DNA of 36,278 nucleotides from Anaerohalosphaeraceae bacterium (lineage in GTDB: Bacteria > Planctomycetota > Phycisphaerae > Sedimentisphaerales > Anaerohalosphaeraceae): contig JBNRMN010000009.1 in NCBI GenBank assembly GCA_050309605.1, positions 1-36,278 of the forward strand. The letters are read 5' to 3'. Every line of letters starts with the position of its first letter. The stretch's first letter is position 1. The position numbers and the translations under genes were made by a program. This document shows, one piece after another, positions 1-36,037 of the stretch. Below the pieces are notes generated by a model. That model searched no databases and was not told where the DNA came from. It saw nothing but the letters and a program-made list of their open reading frames with translations.

Positions 1-2
1 AA

Positions 3-83
3 CTGCCAATTTTGACTACGAGATGCGAAGGTCAGTGCCCCCGGTCGGGGCGCTGCCGAAGCATGTTCGTAGTGGGCTGGCAG
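3..83 (+). other. Long imperfect stem-loop (~30 bp), function unknown
   Basis: Pairings: CTGCCA(3-8)/TGGCAG(78-83), ACTACGA(15-21)/TCGTAGT(67-73), ATGC(23-26)/GCAT(61-64), a symmetric GAA/GAA internal loop, and CAGTGCCCC(33-41)/GGGGCGCTG(47-55) closing a 5-nt loop. Confidence 0.55.
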
Positions 84-243
84 GCCTAGGCTGAGCGTGC
101 GAGTAGGCGGTGCTCCTTAATATTCTCATCAGGAGCGTTCCCGTCGGTGAAAACAGGGACGTTTACTCTCAGGGCTGCACGACAGGGCTTTTTTGTGAGA
201 GGAGTAATAATCGGGCAACAAAAAGAGAACAGGAGAAAAACGA

Positions 244-1857
244 ATGGAGACAGAAAGGACGTATCGAAGAAGCACGGAGTGTGTATCGGAAGATGGGCGG
301 GTATCGAAGGAACCGGAGGACACCCAAAACAGGGTGAGAAAACGCACAGGGTACGGAGCCAAACGATTGTTTTTCATTTTTGTTATCATCGTTCTGGCCG
401 GAATTCGCAGCTTTGCGGCGACCGATGTGCTGTTCCTGATTGACACCACAGGGAGCATGGGAGGTTTAAACATTTTCAAGACGGTGTTGACTGACATCCT
501 TACGGCCATTGACGCAAATTCCCTCTGTCCGGAAACCGTCACGTACGGTGTGGCCGACTACAGGAACTATACCGACGGCGGCAATTATACGGCCTACGGC
601 GTCAATCTGGTTTTGCCATTTACCTCCAGTGTTCAGGCGGCTTTGACGGCCATCAACGGGCTTACTGCTGACGGCGGTGGAGATGATCCGGAAAGCCAGC
701 TCAAGGCAATGGTCAGCATTGCCGACAACTGGCTGACAAGTTCCGGCGATCTGGGCTTTAACGGGCGGCCCGGCGCGCAGCGGATTCTGATCTGGGCAGG
801 CGACCAGCCCGGCCACATCGCCGGTGACGAGCCGGGGTCGAGTGGGCCTCCTCCAGCCGGGTATTACCCTTCGCTCGATGATACGATTGACGCTTTGACC
901 TCGCAGTGGATTACGGTGTTTGCCCTCAATTCGGCCGGTTGCAACACCGGCTTAAATGCAGCTTACGGGTCTCCTCCGCGTCAGCAGGCCAGCGAAATTA
1001 CAGAGGCAACGGGCGGCAAGCTGTACTGCAACGTCGGGTCGGTCGGGCAGGACATTGAAATTGACATTATCGACGAGTTGGCGTGCTTTGCATTTACCAA
1101 GGATGACGGTATCGAACCCAACGACTGTGTCGTCCCCGAACAGGAAATCACGTATACTATCTGCTGGACCAACGATTCCAGCCGAACCGTATATGACGCC
1201 TTCATCATCGACTGGCTGCCGGAAGGGGTTTCGTATCCGCAGGGTGCGTGGGGCGTTGAGTTCGGTGATCCGAACGACCCCCAATCGCCGCCGTTTACCT
1301 TTATCCCGCCCGATCCGGGATATGATGCGGAGTCGCACAGCTATGTCTGGCCGATTGGAGACATCAGTCCGAGCTCAAACGGCTGCGTGCAATTGAATGT
1401 GGTGGTCAATGAAAAAGCCGTTCCGGGTGGCATCCTGCACAACGTGGCCGAACTCTACGGCACGGTGTACGACCCGAACCACCAGAATCCCGTCGAGAGG
1501 CTGATTGCCAGAATCTTCAAAGACACCCAGGTGTGCTGTTATGCGGGAACGGTGGAAATTCTTTATGTGGATCAATCCGCAACAAACGGCGGCAATACAG
1601 GACTGAACTGGCCGAACGCCTTTCTCGACCTGCGGGATGCGCTGGAGTATGCGCGAACATCGATTTGCGGCCCGGTACATTCCATCTATGTTGCACAGGG
1701 GACGTACAGCCCCGGCGATAAATCCTCCAATAGTTTTGTCCTGCCGGACGGCATTTCCGTCTATGGCGGATTCCCCAAAGGCGGCAGCGACTTCTGGCAG
1801 CGTAATCCAAAACGGTATCAAACCGTGCTGAACGGGACAGTGAGCGGCAGCCCCTAA
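244..1857 (+). CDS. Exported vWA + DUF11-like protein that ends partway into a parallel beta-helix module (5' half of a split gene)
   Basis: AGGAG RBS at 231-235; hydrophobic signal ending ..RSFAA; MIDAS motif DVLFLIDTTGSM; DUF11-like segment FTKDDG..ITYTICWTN..IDWLPEGV..LHNVAEL; then YVDQSA..G.NW.NAF.DL.DAL..IYVAQGTY.PG..F.L.DGISVYGGF..TVLNG, which normally opens a beta-helix domain but stops here. Alternative GTG start at 334. Confidence 0.8.
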   Translation: METERTYRRSTECVSEDGRVSKEPEDTQNRVRKRTGYGAKRLFFIFVIIVLAGIRSFAATDVLFLIDTTGSMGGLNIFKTVLTDILTAIDANSLCPETVTYGVADYRNYTDGGNYTAYGVNLVLPFTSSVQAALTAINGLTADGGGDDPESQLKAMVSIADNWLTSSGDLGFNGRPGAQRILIWAGDQPGHIAGDEPGSSGPPPAGYYPSLDDTIDALTSQWITVFALNSAGCNTGLNAAYGSPPRQQASEITEATGGKLYCNVGSVGQDIEIDIIDELACFAFTKDDGIEPNDCVVPEQEITYTICWTNDSSRTVYDAFIIDWLPEGVSYPQGAWGVEFGDPNDPQSPPFTFIPPDPGYDAESHSYVWPIGDISPSSNGCVQLNVVVNEKAVPGGILHNVAELYGTVYDPNHQNPVERLIARIFKDTQVCCYAGTVEILYVDQSATNGGNTGLNWPNAFLDLRDALEYARTSICGPVHSIYVAQGTYSPGDKSSNSFVLPDGISVYGGFPKGGSDFWQRNPKRYQTVLNGTVSGSP

Positions 1858-1941
1858 TTGGGTGCAGCCAGCCTGAAAAAAAACGTGACACAACGGAATT
1901 AAATAATGGCAAAATACGAAATCTTTTCCGAGGAAACGATT

Positions 1942-3195
1942 ATGAAAAGAATACTTGGACTTTTGATATTTGCGTGCATGTCTGTTTCGGTGTCCCTTGC
2001 CGGCTACTCCGACGGGTACATCACCGCCGGCGAATACGAGGGGGCGGTTACCTGGACCAACAGCAATCAGCCCCTGATTGTCGATGGCGGCGGGGCAGCC
2101 GACATCGAGATGCGAAATTACAGCCGGCTCGAAGTGCGGTCAACAAGTACACCCTTGGGGCTTCTTGTCGGCGGGATTCAGTACATTGCTCTAAAGAATA
2201 ACAGCCATCTGGATTATTACGATGGCGAAACATTCAACCTTATGCTCTATGATAACACTACAGCCAATCTCTATGGCGGGCGCATCGACTACCTTACCAG
2301 TTTCCAATACACTGCATCACAACGCATTAACATCTACGCCTTGCCCGGTTGGTCGTGGATTTCAGATGACCCGCTCGAAGGGATTCAAGGACAGTGGTGG
2401 GATGAATCACCCTTTCAGATGAAATTTGACAACATAGAAGGCCGGGCTCCAGTCTGGATGAATGTCAATGTGATTGTTCCAGAACCGACAACTTTGCTGT
2501 TAATGACAGTGGGATGTGTTGTGATTCGTAAAAAGAAACCCCGGATTAGGCCGATTTCACGGAATCTGATTAATTCTTCGTCGAGGGCTTTTTACAGAGT
2601 TACGATGAAAGCCTCTGTTATGTTTTTGGTTTTCAGTTCCGCCGTTTCCTTTGCCGGATATTCTGACGGCTGGATCACCGCCGGCGAATACGAGGGACAT
2701 GTTAGGTGGACCAACAGCAATCAGCCCTTGATTGTCGATGGCGGCGGCGCCATCGGTATCGAAATGCGCAACCATAGTCAACTCGAAGTGCGGTCAACAA
2801 GTACACCCTTGGGGCTTGGAAGCGGAATTCAGGTTATTGGCCTCAACGATTATAGCCATCTGGATTATCGCAATGGCGAAACATTTAACCTCATGCTCTA
2901 CGGTAATGCTACAGCCGACCTTTACGGCGGGCGAATCGACTACCTGACCAGTTTCCAATATGCCGCGACAACGCATGTCAATATCTACGCTTTGCCCGGC
3001 TGGTCGTGGATTTCCGATGATCCGTTGCTCGGTATTCAAGGTCAATGGTGGGACGGTTCGCCATTTGATATCAAGTTCGATAATAAGGAATATCGGGGCT
3101 ATGACCCGGTCTGGATGAATGTCAATGTGATTGTTCCTGAGCCGGCCAGCCTTCTGTTGATGGCGGCAGGACTTGTGCTGGTTCGAAAACGGTGA
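1942..3195 (+). CDS. Two tandem PEP-CTERM surface-protein units in one open frame (unit 1 from 1942, unit 2 from ATG 2605)
   Basis: GAGGA RBS at 1930-1934. Each unit has a signal peptide, a GYSDG..PLIVDGGGA..STSTPL..GGRIDYL domain, VPEP, a TM helix and a basic tail. There is no stop between the units. Confidence 0.85.
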   Translation: MKRILGLLIFACMSVSVSLAGYSDGYITAGEYEGAVTWTNSNQPLIVDGGGAADIEMRNYSRLEVRSTSTPLGLLVGGIQYIALKNNSHLDYYDGETFNLMLYDNTTANLYGGRIDYLTSFQYTASQRINIYALPGWSWISDDPLEGIQGQWWDESPFQMKFDNIEGRAPVWMNVNVIVPEPTTLLLMTVGCVVIRKKKPRIRPISRNLINSSSRAFYRVTMKASVMFLVFSSAVSFAGYSDGWITAGEYEGHVRWTNSNQPLIVDGGGAIGIEMRNHSQLEVRSTSTPLGLGSGIQVIGLNDYSHLDYRNGETFNLMLYGNATADLYGGRIDYLTSFQYAATTHVNIYALPGWSWISDDPLLGIQGQWWDGSPFDIKFDNKEYRGYDPVWMNVNVIVPEPASLLLMAAGLVLVRKR

Positions 3196-3229
3196 TTTAT
3201 AAAGACACGATGTCTGATAGGAGAAGAAC

Positions 3230-4654
3230 ATGTTTAACAAATTATTTTGTCTGTGCATATTATCGTTTGTTTTGAATATTGTTCAAATTGGTGCTGCCCA
3301 GCGTAACAGCGTGATTGTTCGGATGGGCCATAATACGGTTCTTGACGGCTTCACCGTAACCGGGGCAGCAGAGGCTTGTATTTTGGGTGAAAACGTTGAT
3401 TTTTCAGTCGAGAATTGCACCATATCGGATAGCGATAATACTGGAATTCGTGCAATTAACGGCAATGTTTCCCTGAAGTGGTGCGATATCAAACAGAATG
3501 AATGGTATGCGGTGTATCATGAAGGCGAAGGTTTTACGCTCCAAGTGGATAATACGCACATCCGCAAAAACAAACAATATGGCATTTTCTGCCAGAATTC
3601 AACCTTGATTTGCACAAACAGCATTGTCTCCGAGGCCGATTTAAGCCAAACCGGAAACGCAGGCATTACACTGTTTAATGCATCGAGCCAACCATTCATA
3701 CAAAATGTTACCGTTGCACACAACAAGTCGGTAGGAATTTGGCGGCTCGGCGGCGCGTTACCGGAGGTTCACAATTCGATTATTTACCACAATGCCGGCC
3801 CCGCACTTGCAGGCTTTTCGGCCGATGATGCGGCATGGTATAGCTGCATTGAAGATGCCAATTCAGTCAATTACAACATCAATGTTGACCCGCAGTTTGC
3901 GTACTTTGACCCGAACAACGTCCGTCTGTCACCCGCCAGTCTCTGCCGAAACGCCTCCAATCCCTATCTGGACTACAGCGGCCAGTTGGACATGGACGCC
4001 CAGCCGCGCGTGTATGGCATTGCGCCGGATATGGGGGCATATGAATTGACCTGCGACACCAATGTATCGAATGCGTGGGATGTAGACGCGGATGGATTGG
4101 TCAATCTGCTTGAGTTTGCCAGATTCTCGCGTGTCTGGCTGGCGCATGACCCCAACGACCCGGCGGTATCTGACCCGAATCACCCCGACTACGAGTACCA
4201 TACCGCCGACCCGAACGGGCCGGGTTATGTGACGCCTGCCAGTATCGTGGCGTGGTATCCGGATGGCCACACGTTCAACTATGTTGCCACCGGGTCCAGT
4301 CAATATCGCATTGACTTGGCCGATCTGATTTTCTTCCTTGAGGATGCGCCGTGGCTGTGGACGGCCTGCTGGCGGACGGATTTACAGCCGGAGATGATGA
4401 TGGCCGGTTTTGGCGGCGAACAATTGCAGATGTTTTCAGCGGCAAAGACAGTCTCTGCACCACCTGTAGTGGAGCAAAAATCCGTCCAAAAACAGATTCT
4501 TGGTCTGGCCGCTACGATTGTGTCGTTGGAGCAACTCTGGCTTGAAGAGCCGGACATCCAACAGCAGATTGACCCCGAAAAGTGGCAGCGGTTCATGGAA
4601 GCGGTCTATGGTCATCTGCTGGAGTTGCACAATGAGTCTGTTCAAACCAAGTAG
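3230..4654 (+). CDS. Exported right-handed beta-helix protein with choice-of-anchor-Q-like end and dockerin-like module (3' half of the split gene, with its own signal peptide)
   Basis: AGGAG RBS; signal MFNKLFCLCILSFVLNIVQIGAA; VLDGFTVTGA followed by beta-helix repeats; NINVDPQF..LSPASLCRNA..LDMDAQPRVYG..PDMGAYE; EF-hand-like DVDADGLVNLLEF. Confidence 0.8.
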   Translation: MFNKLFCLCILSFVLNIVQIGAAQRNSVIVRMGHNTVLDGFTVTGAAEACILGENVDFSVENCTISDSDNTGIRAINGNVSLKWCDIKQNEWYAVYHEGEGFTLQVDNTHIRKNKQYGIFCQNSTLICTNSIVSEADLSQTGNAGITLFNASSQPFIQNVTVAHNKSVGIWRLGGALPEVHNSIIYHNAGPALAGFSADDAAWYSCIEDANSVNYNINVDPQFAYFDPNNVRLSPASLCRNASNPYLDYSGQLDMDAQPRVYGIAPDMGAYELTCDTNVSNAWDVDADGLVNLLEFARFSRVWLAHDPNDPAVSDPNHPDYEYHTADPNGPGYVTPASIVAWYPDGHTFNYVATGSSQYRIDLADLIFFLEDAPWLWTACWRTDLQPEMMMAGFGGEQLQMFSAAKTVSAPPVVEQKSVQKQILGLAATIVSLEQLWLEEPDIQQQIDPEKWQRFMEAVYGHLLELHNESVQTK

Positions 4655-4683
4655 AAACTTTATTTTGACGAGATAACCCGATT

Positions 4684-4713
4684 GCTGTGTGCGGGAGTTT
4701 TCCCGCACACAGC
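4684..4713. other. Perfect 13-bp intergenic hairpin (mRNA stabiliser, processing site or terminator)
   Basis: GCTGTGTGCGGGA-GTTT-TCCCGCACACAGC; no U-tract follows. Confidence 0.6.
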
Positions 4714-4737
4714 GAACCCAAAAGAATGGAGAAACCG

Positions 4738-5346
4738 ATGATGAAAAGAATGGCAATGTTTTTTGTTTGTGTGTCTGCCGGTTTTGCCGGGTACAGCGAT
4801 GGCTTTCTGACTGCCGAAGATGGCTATCAATATTTTGTTAGATGGTCGAACTCCCAAATCCCTTTAATTGTAGACGGGGGTGGCGCAGAGGAGATTTCAG
4901 TGCGGGACAGCGGCCGCCTGATTGTACAATCGACCTCGAAGCCATTGATAATGGGTGAGAGCGGCGTGTATGATATTTTGCTTTTTAACGGACATCTGCT
5001 CTATCTGGATGGCGTCACTGAATTGATCCGCATTGGCGGCAATTCTACCGCAGTCCTGAAAGGCGGAAGCATCAATTGGATTAACAGTATGCAGTTCACG
5101 GAAAAGACAAATTCCGACCCGCATATAGACCTGTATTGTCAGCCCGGCTGGTCTTGGATTTCTGGCAATCCTATGCTCGGTATTCAGGGCAACTGGATGG
5201 ACGGTTCGCCGTTTGAAATCAAATTCAGCAACGACTCAACCTATGACCCCGTATGGACGAATATCAACATCATTATTCCTGAACCGACAAGCCTGCTCTT
5301 CTTAGCCGCTGGCGGTGGTATTTTGCTTCGGCGATACCGTCGCTGA
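4738..5346 (+). CDS. PEP-CTERM surface protein, third paralog of the GYSDG family
   Basis: GGAG RBS at 4728-4731; signal peptide; GYSDG..PLIVDGGGA..STSKPL; IPEPTSLLFLAAGGGILLRRYRR. Confidence 0.85.
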   Translation: MMKRMAMFFVCVSAGFAGYSDGFLTAEDGYQYFVRWSNSQIPLIVDGGGAEEISVRDSGRLIVQSTSKPLIMGESGVYDILLFNGHLLYLDGVTELIRIGGNSTAVLKGGSINWINSMQFTEKTNSDPHIDLYCQPGWSWISGNPMLGIQGNWMDGSPFEIKFSNDSTYDPVWTNINIIIPEPTSLLFLAAGGGILLRRYRR

Positions 5347-5352
5347 GCACAG

Positions 5353-5392
5353 AGAAAGGGCCTGCCTGTTTCCCTGCAGGCCCTTTCTATTA
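5353..5392 (+). terminator. Probable intrinsic terminator
   Basis: AGAAAGGGCCTGC-10 nt-GCAGGCCCTTTCT directly after the 5346 stop, followed by an AT-rich tail. Confidence 0.6.
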
Positions 5393-5424
5393 TAAATCGC
5401 TATGAACTTGTAAAAGAACGGGGG

Positions 5425-5979
5425 GTGGAAGCGATTAATACGCTTCCATTTTTTGATAGCCCCAGCGGAAAGAGACACTTTGTAGTTTGGCTGGCTGGTG
5501 ATCTCGTCGGCCGTAGTTATGAGGGGCAAGTTTCTTACTGTTTCTCAACAGGAAAACCGACAGGAACCACGACCTATGTCGGGGGCATGTTCGGCAGCTT
5601 TCAATCAAGCTATTCCTGGGGTCTTTTCTGGGACATGCAAACCAGTGATATATATTACGGAGGCGATAACCAAATCAAAGGACGCTTCACCGCCCAGATG
5701 CAAACGCGGTCCACTTTTGAAGATAATTATTGGGATTTTAACACTGTCTGGGCGATATGTGAAGGGACGAATTACCCGCGGCTGCAATGGCAGATACCGG
5801 CAGCCGATTGGGTCTGTCCCGACGGTGTAAATGCAGAGGACTTCATTTATTTGGCCAACCGCTGGCTGCTGGAAGAGTGCGGCAATTCAAACCACTGCGA
5901 CGGCGTCGATCTGAACACAGACGGCCTGGTGGATATGAACGACCTGGCCCGGTTTGCAGCCTACTGGATGCTCGAATGA
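5425..5979 (+). pseudogene. N-terminally truncated GLUG-repeat protein with C-terminal dockerin-like module
   Basis: AGDLVG and YVGGMFG GLUG-like motifs; FWD.QTS..TAQMQT.STF...WDF..VW.ICEG.NYPRL.W; two EF-hand-like motifs (DWVCPDGVN.EDF, DLNTDGLVDMNDL). No signal peptide and no convincing start. Confidence 0.65.
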
Positions 5980-6001
5980 TCTTGTGAATTCGCCATTGCA
6001 A

Positions 6002-31909: not shown

Positions 31910-33030
31910 AGCGGATTCAACTCATAAGTGCAACTGAGTCGCCAAAATTGTGGTGAGCTGGTATACTCTCTCACTGGATTTTGGTGACCTCGGTTAAAAG
32001 GAACACTTATGAGAGAATACAAGCAACTCACCGAAGAGGATCGTATCGAGATTTACGCGATGAAGCAAGCGGGAAAACAACAAAATCAGATCGCTGCGGC
32101 CTTGGGCGTATCGCCCAGCACCGTCAGCCGGGAACTGTCCCGCAATACCGGCTTGCGCGGATATCGCCCTAAGCAGGCCCAGCAAAAGGCGTTACAGAGA
32201 CGCTGGGAAGCTCGTAAAGCCGTGAAAATGACGCCGGAAACCGTCGCTTATATCGAATCCCGACTCCGCCAGGAACATTCGCCGGAACAGATTGCCGAAC
32301 GCATGAAACGCGATCCCACCTGGGCCGGCCCGACCGTCAGCCATGAACGCATTTATCAGCATATCTGGCAGGACAAAGCGGCCGGCGGAACCCTGTATAA
32401 AAAGTTGCGCATCGGCGGCACCAAGCAGCGACGCAAACGCCGAAACAGCCGGGACAGGCGTGGAACCATCAAAAACCGGGTGGGCATTGAAAAACGCCCG
32501 CCGATTGTGGAACGCAACAGGCGCATCGGCGACTGGGAAGGCGACACGGTGGTCGGTAAGAATCACCAAGGGGCGATGGTTACCCTGGTGGACCGCAAAA
32601 GCAAACTGACGCTCATTGGCAAAGTCGATCGCTATACCGCCCAAGCCGTTGAGCAAACCATCATCGGACTCATGGAAGGGCTGCCGCGACGGAACTATAC
32701 ACTGACGGTGGACAATGGCAAAGAATTTTCAACCCATGAAGCGATTGCCCGAACGCTCGAAATCAACGTCTTCTTTGCCGACCCGTACAGTGCATGGCAG
32801 CGGGGCTTGAATGAAAATACCAATGGCTTGATCCGCCAATATGTGCCCAAAGGAAGTGACATCCGGACATTAACCGATGAGCAGATTGAACACATCATGG
32901 AACGTCTGAATAATCGACCCCGAAAATCGCTTGGCTTTTTAACCCCGAATGAAGTATTTTATGAACGGAAAAAATTAACCGGATAACAAAACGGGATTTA
33001 ACTCAGTTGCACTTGGGAGTTGAATCCGCC
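31910..33030 (+). mobile_element. IS30-family insertion sequence, 1121 bp, apparently intact
   Basis: IRL (A)GCGGATTCAACTCATAAGTGCAACTGAGT versus reverse complement of IRR (G)GCGGATTCAACTCCCAAGTGCAACTGAGT; 3-bp direct repeat TTG at 31907-31909 and 33031-33033. Confidence 0.93.
32009..32986 (+). CDS. IS30-family DDE transposase
   Basis: YKQLT.E.R..I HTH, STVSREL.RN, SPEQIA, SHERIYQ, GDWEGDTV, TVDNGKEF, PYSAWQRG.NENTNGLIRQY.PKG, LNNRPRK.LG..TP.E. Confidence 0.97.
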   Translation: MREYKQLTEEDRIEIYAMKQAGKQQNQIAAALGVSPSTVSRELSRNTGLRGYRPKQAQQKALQRRWEARKAVKMTPETVAYIESRLRQEHSPEQIAERMKRDPTWAGPTVSHERIYQHIWQDKAAGGTLYKKLRIGGTKQRRKRRNSRDRRGTIKNRVGIEKRPPIVERNRRIGDWEGDTVVGKNHQGAMVTLVDRKSKLTLIGKVDRYTAQAVEQTIIGLMEGLPRRNYTLTVDNGKEFSTHEAIARTLEINVFFADPYSAWQRGLNENTNGLIRQYVPKGSDIRTLTDEQIEHIMERLNNRPRKSLGFLTPNEVFYERKKLTG

Positions 33031-35236: not shown

Positions 35237-36037
35237 TTATTTCCGCCCCATTATCCTTCTCTTTCTCCCCGCCAAAAAGGCTCCGAAGACAAGGAGGGAG
35301 ACGGTAGCAGGTTCGGGAACGATGATGATGTCAGCGGTAACTTCAACGCCATTCAAATAGATAATATTAAACGTATTATTTAGTGCCGTACCATCTGCCA
35401 ACGTACCTGTGATAGTGCCAGTTCTCTGGTAGTGAGTCTCAAACCACTCTGTAAGCGGAACGAAATCGCTTAGACGATCTCCATAAGAAAGAGTTTGCCC
35501 GTTAACTTCAAATCCTGTTCCATAAAGAAAAATACTACCACTATCACCCACCCTCAAATAATCTTCAATAGACCCTCCAAACACTGAAACAATAGAATTC
35601 CCATAACTACTGAAGGCTCCAAGAGAACCCCCGTATATAGACAGATGAGCATTTTCGTGAAGAGTAAGATGATTAGTATCTCCCCCTATAATATTAACAG
35701 TAGAATTTGAAGTCGCACTGCTATACCCCTTAACTAAGCCATCAGTTATGGTAATCATGTTATCTCCCTCTGCATGAAAACCTCCGTAATTGACTGTCCC
35801 ACCATCAATATTAAGAGTAGCGTGATGATATAGATAGATACTACCGAAAAATAAACCACCCTCAACCAAATTAACGTGTGTGCCTGGAATTATGTCATTA
35901 TCGGGATCTAATTCTAGATCACTATGATAATAGGTGCTGATAGTGTGAGATTGACCATCAATCAAAGTTAAAGCCATCACTGCAGGATTGACAGACAACA
36001 GGACAAGTAAGATTTGAAAAACAAATGCCTTCTTCAT
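35237..36037 (-). CDS. PEP-CTERM protein with Gly-Gly beta-helix-like repeats
   Basis: TAAGGAG RBS before ATG 36037; signal ending ..AVMA; VN/LNI.GG repeats; G.ITGTLADGT.LNN.F; VPEPATVSLLVFGAFLAGRKRR. Confidence 0.88.
   Translation of the reverse strand: MKKAFVFQILLVLLSVNPAVMALTLIDGQSHTISTYYHSDLELDPDNDIIPGTHVNLVEGGLFFGSIYLYHHATLNIDGGTVNYGGFHAEGDNMITITDGLVKGYSSATSNSTVNIIGGDTNHLTLHENAHLSIYGGSLGAFSSYGNSIVSVFGGSIEDYLRVGDSGSIFLYGTGFEVNGQTLSYGDRLSDFVPLTEWFETHYQRTGTITGTLADGTALNNTFNIIYLNGVEVTADIIIVPEPATVSLLVFGAFLAGRKRRIMGRK

What the first reader, a model, noticed from the sequence alone, without database searches (positions are those of the whole stretch)
1720..3400. Surface-protein gene split by a transposase-free ~1.45-kb cassette that carries PEP-CTERM genes and gives the downstream half a new signal peptide
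Seen: ORF 244-1857 stops at ..RYQTVLNGTVSGSP*, partway into a beta-helix module. ORF 3230-4654 resumes with QRNSVIVRMGHNTVLDGFTVTGA, the text expected next in that module. The DNA between them is bounded by an imperfect 15-bp inverted repeat (12/15 match): GGCAGCCCCTAATTG at 1846-1860 and the reverse complement of 3284-3298, GGCAGCACCAATTTG. Deleting 1846-3298 joins the halves exactly in frame (..NGTVS|QRNS..); joins at 1851/3299 or 1836/3284 are also in frame, so the true junction is not fixed. The left end also forms a dyad centred on AATT (1846-1869). The insert has no transposase or recombinase. It supplies a stop for the 5' half and an RBS plus signal peptide for the 3' half, so both halves could still be exported. 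Inference: this could be a non-autonomous cassette that shuffles or switches surface proteins (one ~990-aa protein versus several smaller ones), or a single illegitimate recombination event.
Basis: partly seen in the sequence, partly recalled or inferred. Interest (0 to 1): 0.78.

Follow-up and report, generated by a model that had tools for sequence, protein, structure and literature searches.

The report
Old, conserved split of a surface-protein gene
A large secreted beta-helix protein gene of a Phycisphaerae bacterium was cut in two long ago by an inserted anchor-protein gene that also gave the second half its own export signal. All the pieces have been kept working since, so this is a clean natural case of gene fission, not a jumping element.

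Summary
ORF 244-1857 stops inside a beta-helix (DUF1565-type) domain, and ORF 3230-4654 resumes it behind a 23-residue signal peptide. The DNA between them carries two PEP-CTERM repeats, which form one fused ORF. An unsplit paralog in the same genome and unsplit orthologs in two other genera read straight through the site.

The mobile-cassette reading is not supported. The 12/15 inverted repeat is not conserved in the other split copies. There is no second copy, no transposase, and no empty-site form in the four runs laid.

The same split, with homologous stop position, insert gene, ribosome-binding leader and signal peptide, occurs in a second species of the genus, twice in one genome of another genus, and on six metagenome contigs. 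All parts are under purifying selection (dN/dS 0.13-0.17), including the orphaned 102-residue beta-helix cap.

Trees show a single origin for the core (insert gene, signal peptide and first ~180 residues of the C-half). Both flanks group with local unsplit paralogs, so the flanks recombine.

Best reading: an old, fixed gene fission that now forms a multi-gene surface module. Whether the halves re-associate could not be tested. Moderate interest.

The parts
1..243 (+). Upstream leader of the N-half gene. Bases 11-113 belong to a ~100-nt element repeated upstream of other genes of this family, and the contig starts inside it.
   Evidence: blastn of 1-330 against the own genome finds C6 (84% over 305 nt), C43, C44 (94%) and C19 twice. 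Sequences read.
244..1857 (+). N-half gene, 537 aa: N-terminal hydrophobic export signal, VWA-like domain, DUF11 domain, then the first 102 residues (aa 436-537) of the beta-helix domain. Stop TAA at 1855-1857.
   Evidence: DUF11 25.7 bits, over its cut-off; VWA models 20.6-21.7 bits, under theirs. dN/dS 0.154 against G002. The tail alone gives 0.170.
1846..1869 (.). Judged not to be a functional end.
1942..3195 (+). Insert gene: two tandem PEP-CTERM beta-solenoid repeats, P1 1942-2547 and P2 2605-3192, in one open frame joined by a conserved basic linker. Stop TGA at 3193-3195.
   Evidence: TIGR02595 scores 20.1 and 18.5 bits against a cut-off of 16. dN/dS 0.170. The 10 insert PEP rows form one clade, 100/99. 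Structure model.
3196..3229 (+). Intergenic leader with AGGAGA at 3219-3224, 5 nt before the ATG. It is conserved in DNA in all the split copies compared.
3230..3298 (+). New signal peptide of the C-half, 23 codons ending GAA|Q. The mature end lies one residue before the ancestral 'RN'.
   Evidence: The cleavage site is read by eye; no predictor was run.
3230..4654 (+). C-half gene, 474 aa: signal peptide, the rest of the right-handed beta-helix, a dockerin-like stretch and a conserved C-terminal region.
   Evidence: PF13229 55.7 bits. dN/dS 0.125.
3299..3790 (+). Core beta-helix segment (about aa 24-185 of the C-half) that shares its history with the insert.
   Evidence: The 4 split copies form one clade, 100/99. 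Identity is 69-75% to the other genus's split copies and 54% or less to any unsplit copy.
3760..3830 (.). Approximate zone where the nearest relative switches from split copies to unsplit paralogs (recombination breakpoint).
   Evidence: Sliding windows of 40 aa.
4738..5346 (+). Downstream PEP-CTERM gene (P3). This is the type that follows unsplit family genes too.
   Evidence: downstream clade 99/98.

Best explanation
This is an old gene fission that became fixed. It is not an active mobile element.

The event. In an ancestor, a gene for a secreted VWA-DUF11-beta-helix-dockerin-like protein took up a piece of DNA once. The DNA landed in the loop between the first coils of the beta-helix domain. 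It carried a PEP-CTERM beta-solenoid gene followed by a ribosome-binding leader and a signal-peptide coding start.

The result. A co-oriented gene string formed:
- the N-half, which keeps the beta-helix cap;
- the PEP-CTERM protein, duplicated and fused here;
- the C-half with its own signal peptide;
- the usual downstream PEP-CTERM gene.
All are exported, and all have been kept by purifying selection through species- and genus-level divergence.

Later history. The core (insert gene, leader, signal peptide and first ~180 residues of the C-half) has one origin. The sequence on both sides has since been exchanged with unsplit paralogs of the same genomes by homologous recombination.

Shown: the anatomy, the unsplit relatives, the single origin of the core, the discordant flanks, and the selection.

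Inferred: how the insertion happened; co-transcription; export of each product; and that the retained 102-residue beta-helix cap of the N-half still docks on the C-half outside the cytoplasm.
For: Unsplit state.
- The own-genome paralog on C6 reads through the site in one 618-aa frame (..NGRIDDTTRNETVVRMGH..).
- Orthologs G031:C72 (1075-aa frame) and G007:C5 (1033-aa frame) are unsplit.
- 18 unsplit family members show the same motif across the site.
- PF07602 spans the site in G007:C5 (aa 513-642, site ~585; 32.7 bits, cut-off 20.3) and in G031:C72 (aa 567-698, site ~621).
- In a model of the unsplit domain (pLDDT 86.5) the site is a loop between strands 107-110 and 121-124.

Same split elsewhere.
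- G002 has it at 88% identity for both halves. G026 has it twice, on C32 and C121.
- Six of the 9 metagenome loci have it.
- The stops fall within two codons of each other. The right junction is alignable in DNA.

Single origin of the core.
- C1 tree: the 4 split copies form one clade, 100/99.
- PEP tree: the 10 insert PEP rows form one clade, 100/99.

Flanks recombine.
- N-segment tree: G026:C32 groups with unsplit G026 paralogs (100/99). The AU test rejects a split clade, p = 9e-5.
- C-terminal tree: the AU test rejects a split clade, p = 9e-10.
- The nearest relative switches at about C-half aa 180-200.

Selection. dN/dS against G002 is 0.154 for the N-half, 0.170 for P1-P2 and 0.125 for the C-half. 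The N-half beta-helix tail gives 0.170 against G002 and 0.171 against L084.

Not mobile.

One transcription unit, weak evidence. On the + strand no terminator-like site is listed between 1857 and 5138; three follow, at 5138 and 5305 inside P3 and at 5364 just after it. The scan as a whole is at chance level. An RNA-library contig lies on 3075-3297, across the P2/C-half boundary.

Anchoring system. The genome has 2 exosortase genes over the Pfam cut-off.
Against: Distribution is patchy. Only 3 of the 70 family genomes scanned hold the signal-peptide form: G000, G002 and G026.

By a single-marker tree (an EF-G-like protein), genus g1 and genus g21 are not sisters; the AU test gives p = 0.008. 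Pure vertical descent therefore needs several losses or repairs.

In the VWA segment G000 and G002 sit with the unsplit G031 and G007 genes rather than with G026's split copies. Support is 87/92, not starred, and the AU test against a split clade gives p = 0.062.

In the closest relative, G006 (EF-G-like protein 97% identical), the whole ~6-kb locus is missing from the syntenic place beside the 1080-aa gene. G006 is only 83% complete.

In G026:C32 the C-half frame carries one TGA, so that copy may be decaying.

Re-association of the halves and co-transcription are not shown.
Confidence: 0.7

Rival explanations
1. The core is a recombination-borne cassette. The core here means the stop, the insert PEP-CTERM gene, the leader, the signal peptide and the first ~180 residues of the beta-helix. 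It has no machinery of its own. It spreads between genomes or gene copies, and is lost again, by homologous recombination in the conserved flanks. A gene can thus toggle between a one-piece and a multi-piece form.
For: The core and its flanks have discordant trees.

Distribution is patchy, 3 of 70 family genomes, in genera that a single-marker tree does not make sisters.

The VWA segment of G000 and G002 lies nearer to unsplit orthologs (87/92, AU p = 0.062).

The locus is absent from the syntenic site in the closest relative.

Stand-alone C-halves in the protein database carry different C-terminal tails on a similar core: compare P0002, P0004 and P0006.
Against: In the 3 split-type metagenome loci that reach far enough upstream, the upstream gene is of the one VWA type: L078, L079 and L081. 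G000, G002 and G026:C32 are the same. Free movement among the many paralogs would put the core into other types.

Core identity between the two genera (69-75%) is about that of the EF-G-like protein (73%). That fits descent as well as it fits transfer.

Conversion of the flanks by local paralogs explains the discordance without moving the core.
Confidence: 0.2
2. One reading: a non-autonomous transposon-like cassette bounded by a 15-bp inverted repeat, which inserts into and excises from surface-protein genes.
For: The 12/15 inverted repeat sits exactly at the two junctions. Only 11 of 2000 random window pairs at this spacing match as well. The ends also share an imperfect direct repeat.
Against: The repeat falls to 10/15 in G002. 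In G026 and its metagenome twins the best match is 9-10/15, at other positions; the background mode is 9.

The own genome has no second copy of the insert.

The motif occurs 12 times in 3.4 Mb against ~6 expected. None of these lies next to another PEP-family gene.

No transposase was found. No joint skips the insert in the 4 runs laid.

The right arm is simply the codons of the signal-peptide cleavage region.
Confidence: 0.03
3. The polarity is the reverse. Two genes with a PEP-CTERM gene between them are the ancestral state, and the one-piece genes are later fusions.
For: None directly. The trees are unrooted for this question.
Against: A single Pfam domain and a continuous predicted beta-helix span the site.

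Unsplit forms are the rule: dozens of frames of 900-1100 aa across 48-50 of the 61 genomes searched.

The split copies form a small clade on a long stem inside the C1 tree.

A fusion would have to remove a gene, a stop and a signal peptide precisely, and do so many times.
Confidence: 0.04
4. Assembly artefact: the insert was joined into the gene by mis-assembly of repeated PEP-CTERM genes.
For: The family is repetitive, and contigs of this genome break inside it (C6, C28 and the start of C9).
Against: The same architecture appears in independent assemblies: G002, G026 twice, and six metagenome contigs.

Contigs of two other DNA runs bridge the junctions with 0 differences.
Confidence: 0.01

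Closest known systems
Gene fission 'by separation' (classification of Leonard and Richards 2012, seen here only as quoted in PMC5174107)
   Same: A stop and a new start arise inside one gene. Both parts stay as adjacent, co-oriented genes under selection.
   Different: The cut lies inside a folded domain, not between domains. A whole extra gene sits between the halves. The second half gained a signal peptide that leaves a mature end within one residue of the break.
Geobacter pilin fission GSU1496 / GSU1497 (PMC5174107; passages read)
   Same: An exported surface protein is split into two adjacent genes. According to that paper the C-terminal piece has its own signal peptide.
   Different: That fission separates an N-terminal helix from a C-terminal beta-sheet region. 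The paper explains it by duplication, degeneration and separation, and no gene lies between the pieces. That the pilin pieces assemble together is recalled, not read here.
Non-autonomous transposable elements (MITE-like or cassette-like)
   Same: A bounded insert without a transposase, with an imperfect terminal inverted repeat in this one copy.
   Different: The ends are not conserved between copies. There are no multiple copies and no sign of excision. The insert is a selected, functional gene.
PEP-CTERM / exosortase sorting system
   Same: P1, P2 and P3 carry the C-terminal PEP motif, a hydrophobic helix and a basic tail. The genome has two exosortase genes.
   Different: P1 and P2 are fused into one protein with an internal PEP-CTERM segment. 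The globular part is a small beta-solenoid.
Right-handed parallel beta-helix carbohydrate-active enzymes and adhesins (pectate lyase Pel9A, AlgE4 epimerase)
   Same: The fold of the split domain: 1ru4 at E 1e-6 and TMq 0.59; 21 PDB hits at E <= 0.001.
   Different: Sequence identity is 12-16%. No catalytic residues were checked, so no activity can be assigned.

Membership tests
Gene fission of one ancestral gene | Unsplit homologs in which one domain runs across the break | tested here: met
   C6 paralog, G031:C72 and G007:C5. PF07602 spans the site. The model shows a continuous beta-helix.
Gene fission of one ancestral gene | Both parts kept as intact genes under purifying selection | tested here: met
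   dN/dS is 0.154 and 0.125. The orphan tail gives 0.170 and 0.171.
Gene fission of one ancestral gene | The one-piece state is ancestral | tested here: inconclusive
   This is inferred from how widespread the unsplit forms are and from domain continuity. No rooted test was made.
Transposon-like non-autonomous cassette | Terminal inverted repeats conserved among copies | tested here: not met
   12/15 here, 10/15 in G002, and 9-10/15 at other positions in the G026 copies.
Transposon-like non-autonomous cassette | Several copies in a genome, or an empty site | tested here: not met
   No second copy by blastn. No joint skips the insert in the 4 runs laid. Contigs drop rare variants, so a rare empty allele is not excluded.
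Transposon-like non-autonomous cassette | Target-site duplication | tested here: inconclusive
   The longest exact direct repeat at the ends is 6 nt. An imperfect ~15-nt repeat follows from the left-end dyad. It was compared by eye with the junction sequences and is not recognisable in the other copies.
PEP-CTERM / exosortase substrates | C-terminal PEP motif, hydrophobic helix and basic tail | tested here: met
   TIGR02595 scores 20.1 (P1), 18.5 (P2) and 16.7 (P3) bits against a cut-off of 16. Pfam PF07589 is under its cut-off, 17.5 and 20.2 against 20.7.
PEP-CTERM / exosortase substrates | Exosortase gene in the same genome | tested here: met
   PF09721 hits at C23 and C34, 195.8 and 189.8 bits.
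Right-handed beta-helix (PF13229 / PF07602) | Profile match over the curated cut-off, and the fold | tested here: met
   PF13229 55.7 bits on the C-half. PF07602 on unsplit orthologs. Foldseek hit to 1ru4 at E 1e-6.
Split intein / protein trans-splicing | Hint/intein domain halves at the break | tested here: not met
   Pfam at E <= 0.01 gives no intein family on either half. The C-half starts with a signal peptide.
Intron or other known RNA element in the insert | Match to an Rfam family | tested here: not met
   0 matches at E <= 1 in bases 1-6000. The insert encodes a selected protein.

The most novel reading that the evidence does not exclude
The locus may encode a naturally split beta-solenoid. 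After separate export, the N-half's retained cap and first coil would stack back onto the C-half's open beta-helix. The interposed PEP-CTERM protein is itself a small beta-solenoid and would join as anchor or third stacking partner.

In addition, the core may be carried in and out of family genes by homologous recombination. Lineages would then toggle between a one-piece and a multi-piece surface protein.
Probability: 0.25. Interest if true: 0.65.

Novelty: new variant of a known kind. Interest (0 to 1): 0.42.

Why it matters
Gene fission is well known, but well-resolved bacterial cases are few. This one has unusual features:
- the cut lies inside a folded domain of an exported protein;
- another gene sits between the halves;
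- the second half carries a signal peptide that lands almost exactly on the break;
- all parts have stayed under selection for a long time.

It gives a concrete test case for two questions. Can beta-solenoid proteins work as non-covalent pieces assembled outside the cell? How does gene conversion among paralogs shape surface-protein families in Planctomycetota? It also warns annotators that the two ORFs are halves of one domain.

Tried and rejected
Complex prediction. Complex prediction for the N-half tail (aa 425-537) with the mature C-half (aa 24-200) was not available. Binding of the halves is therefore untested.

Earlier notes. There are none for this genome.

Rfam. No match in 1-6000.

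Promoter and terminator scan. It is at chance level: 7 found against 6.5 expected, for each kind.

Genome-contig scan. It returned only the two contigs already known, plus one unrelated 37% hit.

Candidate stand-alone C-halves. Those in G023, G020 and G014 turned out to be cut by contig ends. G018:C94 also runs to a contig end and has a TAG between its two matches. None of these was used.

Fold of the PEP protein. Foldseek gave nothing at E <= 0.001. VIA-align gave beta-solenoids: TibA at Z 11.9, rmsd 3.0, 126 aligned; an RTX domain at Z 11.4; Ag43 at Z 9.7. This shows a fold only, not a function.

RNA runs. X16 and X18 are RNA-library contigs covering 6 and 2 of the 30 bins. They show presence in an RNA library, not transcription levels or transcript ends.

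No cover or no joint in a run is not evidence of absence.

Origin of the signal peptide and leader. blastn of 1800-3350 found no source elsewhere in the genome.

Literature. Searches listed no paper whose title or abstract start describes this split. Only PMC5174107 was opened, and only passages of it.
Full report
**1. What is in the sequence**

ORF 244-1857 (537 aa) ends ..YGGFPKGGSDFWQRNPKRYQTVLNGTVSGSP*. ORF 3230-4654 (474 aa) begins with a 23-residue hydrophobic leader, MFNKLFCLCILSFVLNIVQIGAA, followed by QRNSVIVRMGHNTVLDGFTVTGA.

Between them lies one open frame, 1906-3195. It holds two ~75%-identical PEP-CTERM repeats, P1 and P2. P1 has no stop codon of its own. A third, more distant family member, P3 (4738-5346), follows the C-half.

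Domain matches:
- N-half: DUF11 over its cut-off; VWA models just under theirs.
- C-half: Beta_helix PF13229 at 55.7 bits.
- P1, P2 and P3: the PEP-CTERM model TIGR02595 over its cut-off.

The genome has two exosortase genes.

**2. Is it really one gene cut in two?**

Yes.
- The same genome holds a paralog on contig C6 that reads through the homologous point in one 618-aa frame (..NTILNGRIDDTTRNETVVRMGHETLLDGFTVTEAG..). Its likely continuation on contig C28 is followed by a P3-type PEP-CTERM gene.
- In a search of 61 genomes, full-length orthologs with the same VWA-DUF11 front are unsplit in G031 (1075-aa frame) and G007 (1033-aa frame).
- Eighteen unsplit family members show the same motif across the site. 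Mostly six residues separate the conserved glycine (..L-x-G) from the downstream RN-type motif. In the window the N-half carries six residues after 'NG' before its stop. The mature C-half starts one residue before 'RN'.
- Pfam DUF1565 (PF07602) spans the point in both unsplit orthologs.
- An AlphaFold model of the unsplit G007 domain (24-row alignment, pLDDT 86.5, pTM 0.85) is a right-handed beta-helix. The break falls in a well-ordered loop between strands 107-110 and 121-124, after a capping helix and the first coil.
- The best solved match is pectate lyase Pel9A at E 1e-6. That shows a fold only.

**3. Is it an assembly error?**

No. G002, G026 (twice) and six metagenome contigs show the same architecture. 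Contigs of two unrelated DNA runs bridge the junctions without a difference.

**4. Is it a mobile cassette with inverted-repeat ends?**

The repeat exists: 12/15, pair I10 of 26 pairs in 1751 nt. At fixed windows it is nominally rare, 11 of 2000. The evidence against it as a functional end is stronger.
- In G002 the same positions give 10/15. In G026's two copies and their metagenome twins the best pair is 9-10/15, at other positions; the background mode is 9.
- The right arm is the coding sequence of the signal-peptide cleavage region.
- The own genome has no second copy of the insert.
- The motif GGCAGC-N3-AATT occurs 12 times against ~6 expected. It lies next to no other PEP-family gene.
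- There is no transposase.
- No joint skips the insert in the four runs laid. Contigs can miss rare forms.
- An imperfect direct repeat at the ends follows from the left-end dyad. It too is not recognisable in the other copies.

**5. How old and how widespread is it?**

The split, with stops within two codons of each other and a DNA-alignable right junction (PEP C-terminus, leader with AGGAGA, ATG, signal peptide), is in these places:
- G002, same genus, 88% identity for both halves.
- G026, another genus, on C32 and C121.
- Metagenome loci L078 to L082 and L084.

L078 looks like G002. L079 and L080 look like G026:C121, and L081 like G026:C32. These are therefore not independent. L082 and L084 are further lineages.

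The insert holds two PEP repeats in G000 and in G002/L078. It holds one in G026 (both copies), L079, L080, L081 and L084.

In all 70 genomes of the family, only G000, G002 and G026 have the signal-peptide form. The other 23 listed matches start at residue 19-29, mostly inside frames of 868-1155 aa; four shorter frames are cut by contig ends or stops.

The 5.8-billion-protein database adds stand-alone C-halves with this leader type: P0002, P0003, P0004 and P0006.

**6. Selection**

Against G002, dN/dS is 0.154 for the N-half, 0.170 for P1-P2 and 0.125 for the C-half, with dS 0.44-0.86. The orphaned 102-residue beta-helix tail of the N-half gives 0.170 against G002 and 0.171 against L084. None of the pieces is decaying here. 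In G026:C32 the C-half has one in-frame TGA.

**7. Mosaic history**

Segment identities reverse rank.
- The first ~200 residues of the C-half are 69-75% identical to G026's split copies and 54% or less to any unsplit copy.
- The N-segment and the C-terminal part are 64-77% identical to unsplit copies of the own genus, the two unsplit orthologs G007 and G031 (N-segment), and C6/C28. They are only 52-53% identical to G026's split copies.
- The switch lies near C-half residue 180-200.

Maximum-likelihood trees agree.
- Core segment: split copies form one clade, 100/99.
- Insert PEP proteins: one clade of 10 rows, 100/99, apart from the downstream PEP proteins, 99/98.
- N-segment and C-terminal part: split copies are not a clade. 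AU p = 9e-5 and 9e-10. Each groups with unsplit paralogs of its own lineage.

The groups were named after the identity table and before the trees. The core thus has one origin, and the flanks have been exchanged with paralogs.

**8. Descent or transfer?**

This stays open.
- The EF-G-like protein of the window is 97% identical in G006, 90% in G002, 74% in G007, 73% in G026 and 70% in G031. In its tree the window's genus is not sister to G026's, AU p = 0.008. This is one marker only.
- In the VWA segment, G000 and G002 sit with the unsplit G031 and G007 genes. Support is 87/92, unstarred, and the AU test against a split clade gives p = 0.062.
- The whole ~6-kb locus is missing from the syntenic place in G006, where an argininosuccinate-synthase-like gene abuts the 1080-aa gene. 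That identification is from reading the translation. G006 is 83% complete.

These points favour some lateral movement or repeated loss and repair by conversion. Two points argue against free movement. Wherever the upstream gene can be seen, it is the same VWA type. And core divergence between the genera equals that of the EF-G-like protein.

**9. Mechanism proposed**

One illegitimate insertion (inferred) put a PEP-CTERM gene, a leader and a signal-peptide start into a surface loop of the beta-helix. Each product is exported on its own signal. The signals are read by eye; no predictor was run. The PEP-CTERM protein goes through the exosortase route.

The N-half's cap is still under selection, so the simplest reading is that it stacks back on the C-half.

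The PEP-CTERM protein is itself predicted as a small beta-solenoid with a C-terminal helix (pLDDT 87). Its nearest solved folds are adhesin and RTX solenoids at Z 9.7-11.9. Its role as anchor or stacking partner is speculation.

**10. Comparison and verdict**

The nearest described case found is the Geobacter pilin fission, whose C-terminal piece also has its own signal peptide (PMC5174107, passages read). Five literature searches listed nothing on this split.

It is a new variant of gene fission: inside a domain, with an interposed gene and a recruited signal peptide. It sits in a family that recombines heavily. It is not a new kind of mobile element. Interest is moderate.

Noticed in passing
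window 1942-3195; L032 2062-3327: P1 and P2 form one fused two-repeat PEP-CTERM protein. P1 has no stop. In G002, P2 has no ATG, GTG or TTG start, and the basic linker (KKPRIxPISxNL..) is conserved. The topology would be: first domain outside, PEP-CTERM helix, cytoplasmic basic loop, second hydrophobic segment, second domain outside. The repeats have also exchanged segments between the species: G002's P1 resembles G000's P2.
   Followed up: partly
window 1-113; G000 C6:17909-18211, C43:24075-24251, C44:3493-3594, C19:4653-4754 and 535-462: A ~100-nt element with a G+C-rich hairpin is repeated at 82-94% identity in at least 5 other places in the genome. At C6, and about 2 kb before a family match on C43, it lies upstream of a family gene. 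The first ~24 codons (METERTYRRS..) are also shared with the C6 paralog. This may be a common promoter or leader. It is probably why the contig starts here. No Rfam match.
   Followed up: partly
window 1-5992 versus L088 (G006:C65:1-3700): In the closest relative, synteny stops at about base 5993. An argininosuccinate-synthase-like gene, a prepilin-peptidase-like gene and an OmpA-like gene lie there instead. In G000 these genes are on contig C45, whose end runs into another secreted-protein gene and overlaps contig C85 by 127 nt. The split locus therefore lies in a variable surface-protein island.
   Followed up: partly
window 5425-5979: A 184-aa ORF after P3 has a weak GC-type dockerin match at its C-terminus (NF041540, E 0.009, under the cut-off).
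   Followed up: no
L033 (G026:C32), C-half: One in-frame TGA sits at the tryptophan of ..AAWYSC... This could be a pseudogene, a sequencing error or a recoded codon. It was not resolved.
   Followed up: no
window 32009-32986: An ORF with HTH_38 and a weak integrase-core (rve) match, which looks like an IS-type transposase. It is 27 kb from the finding and unrelated to it.
   Followed up: no
window 35258-35734 (- strand): A distant member of the same PEP-CTERM small-protein family (26% identity to P1) lies at the far end of the window.
   Followed up: no
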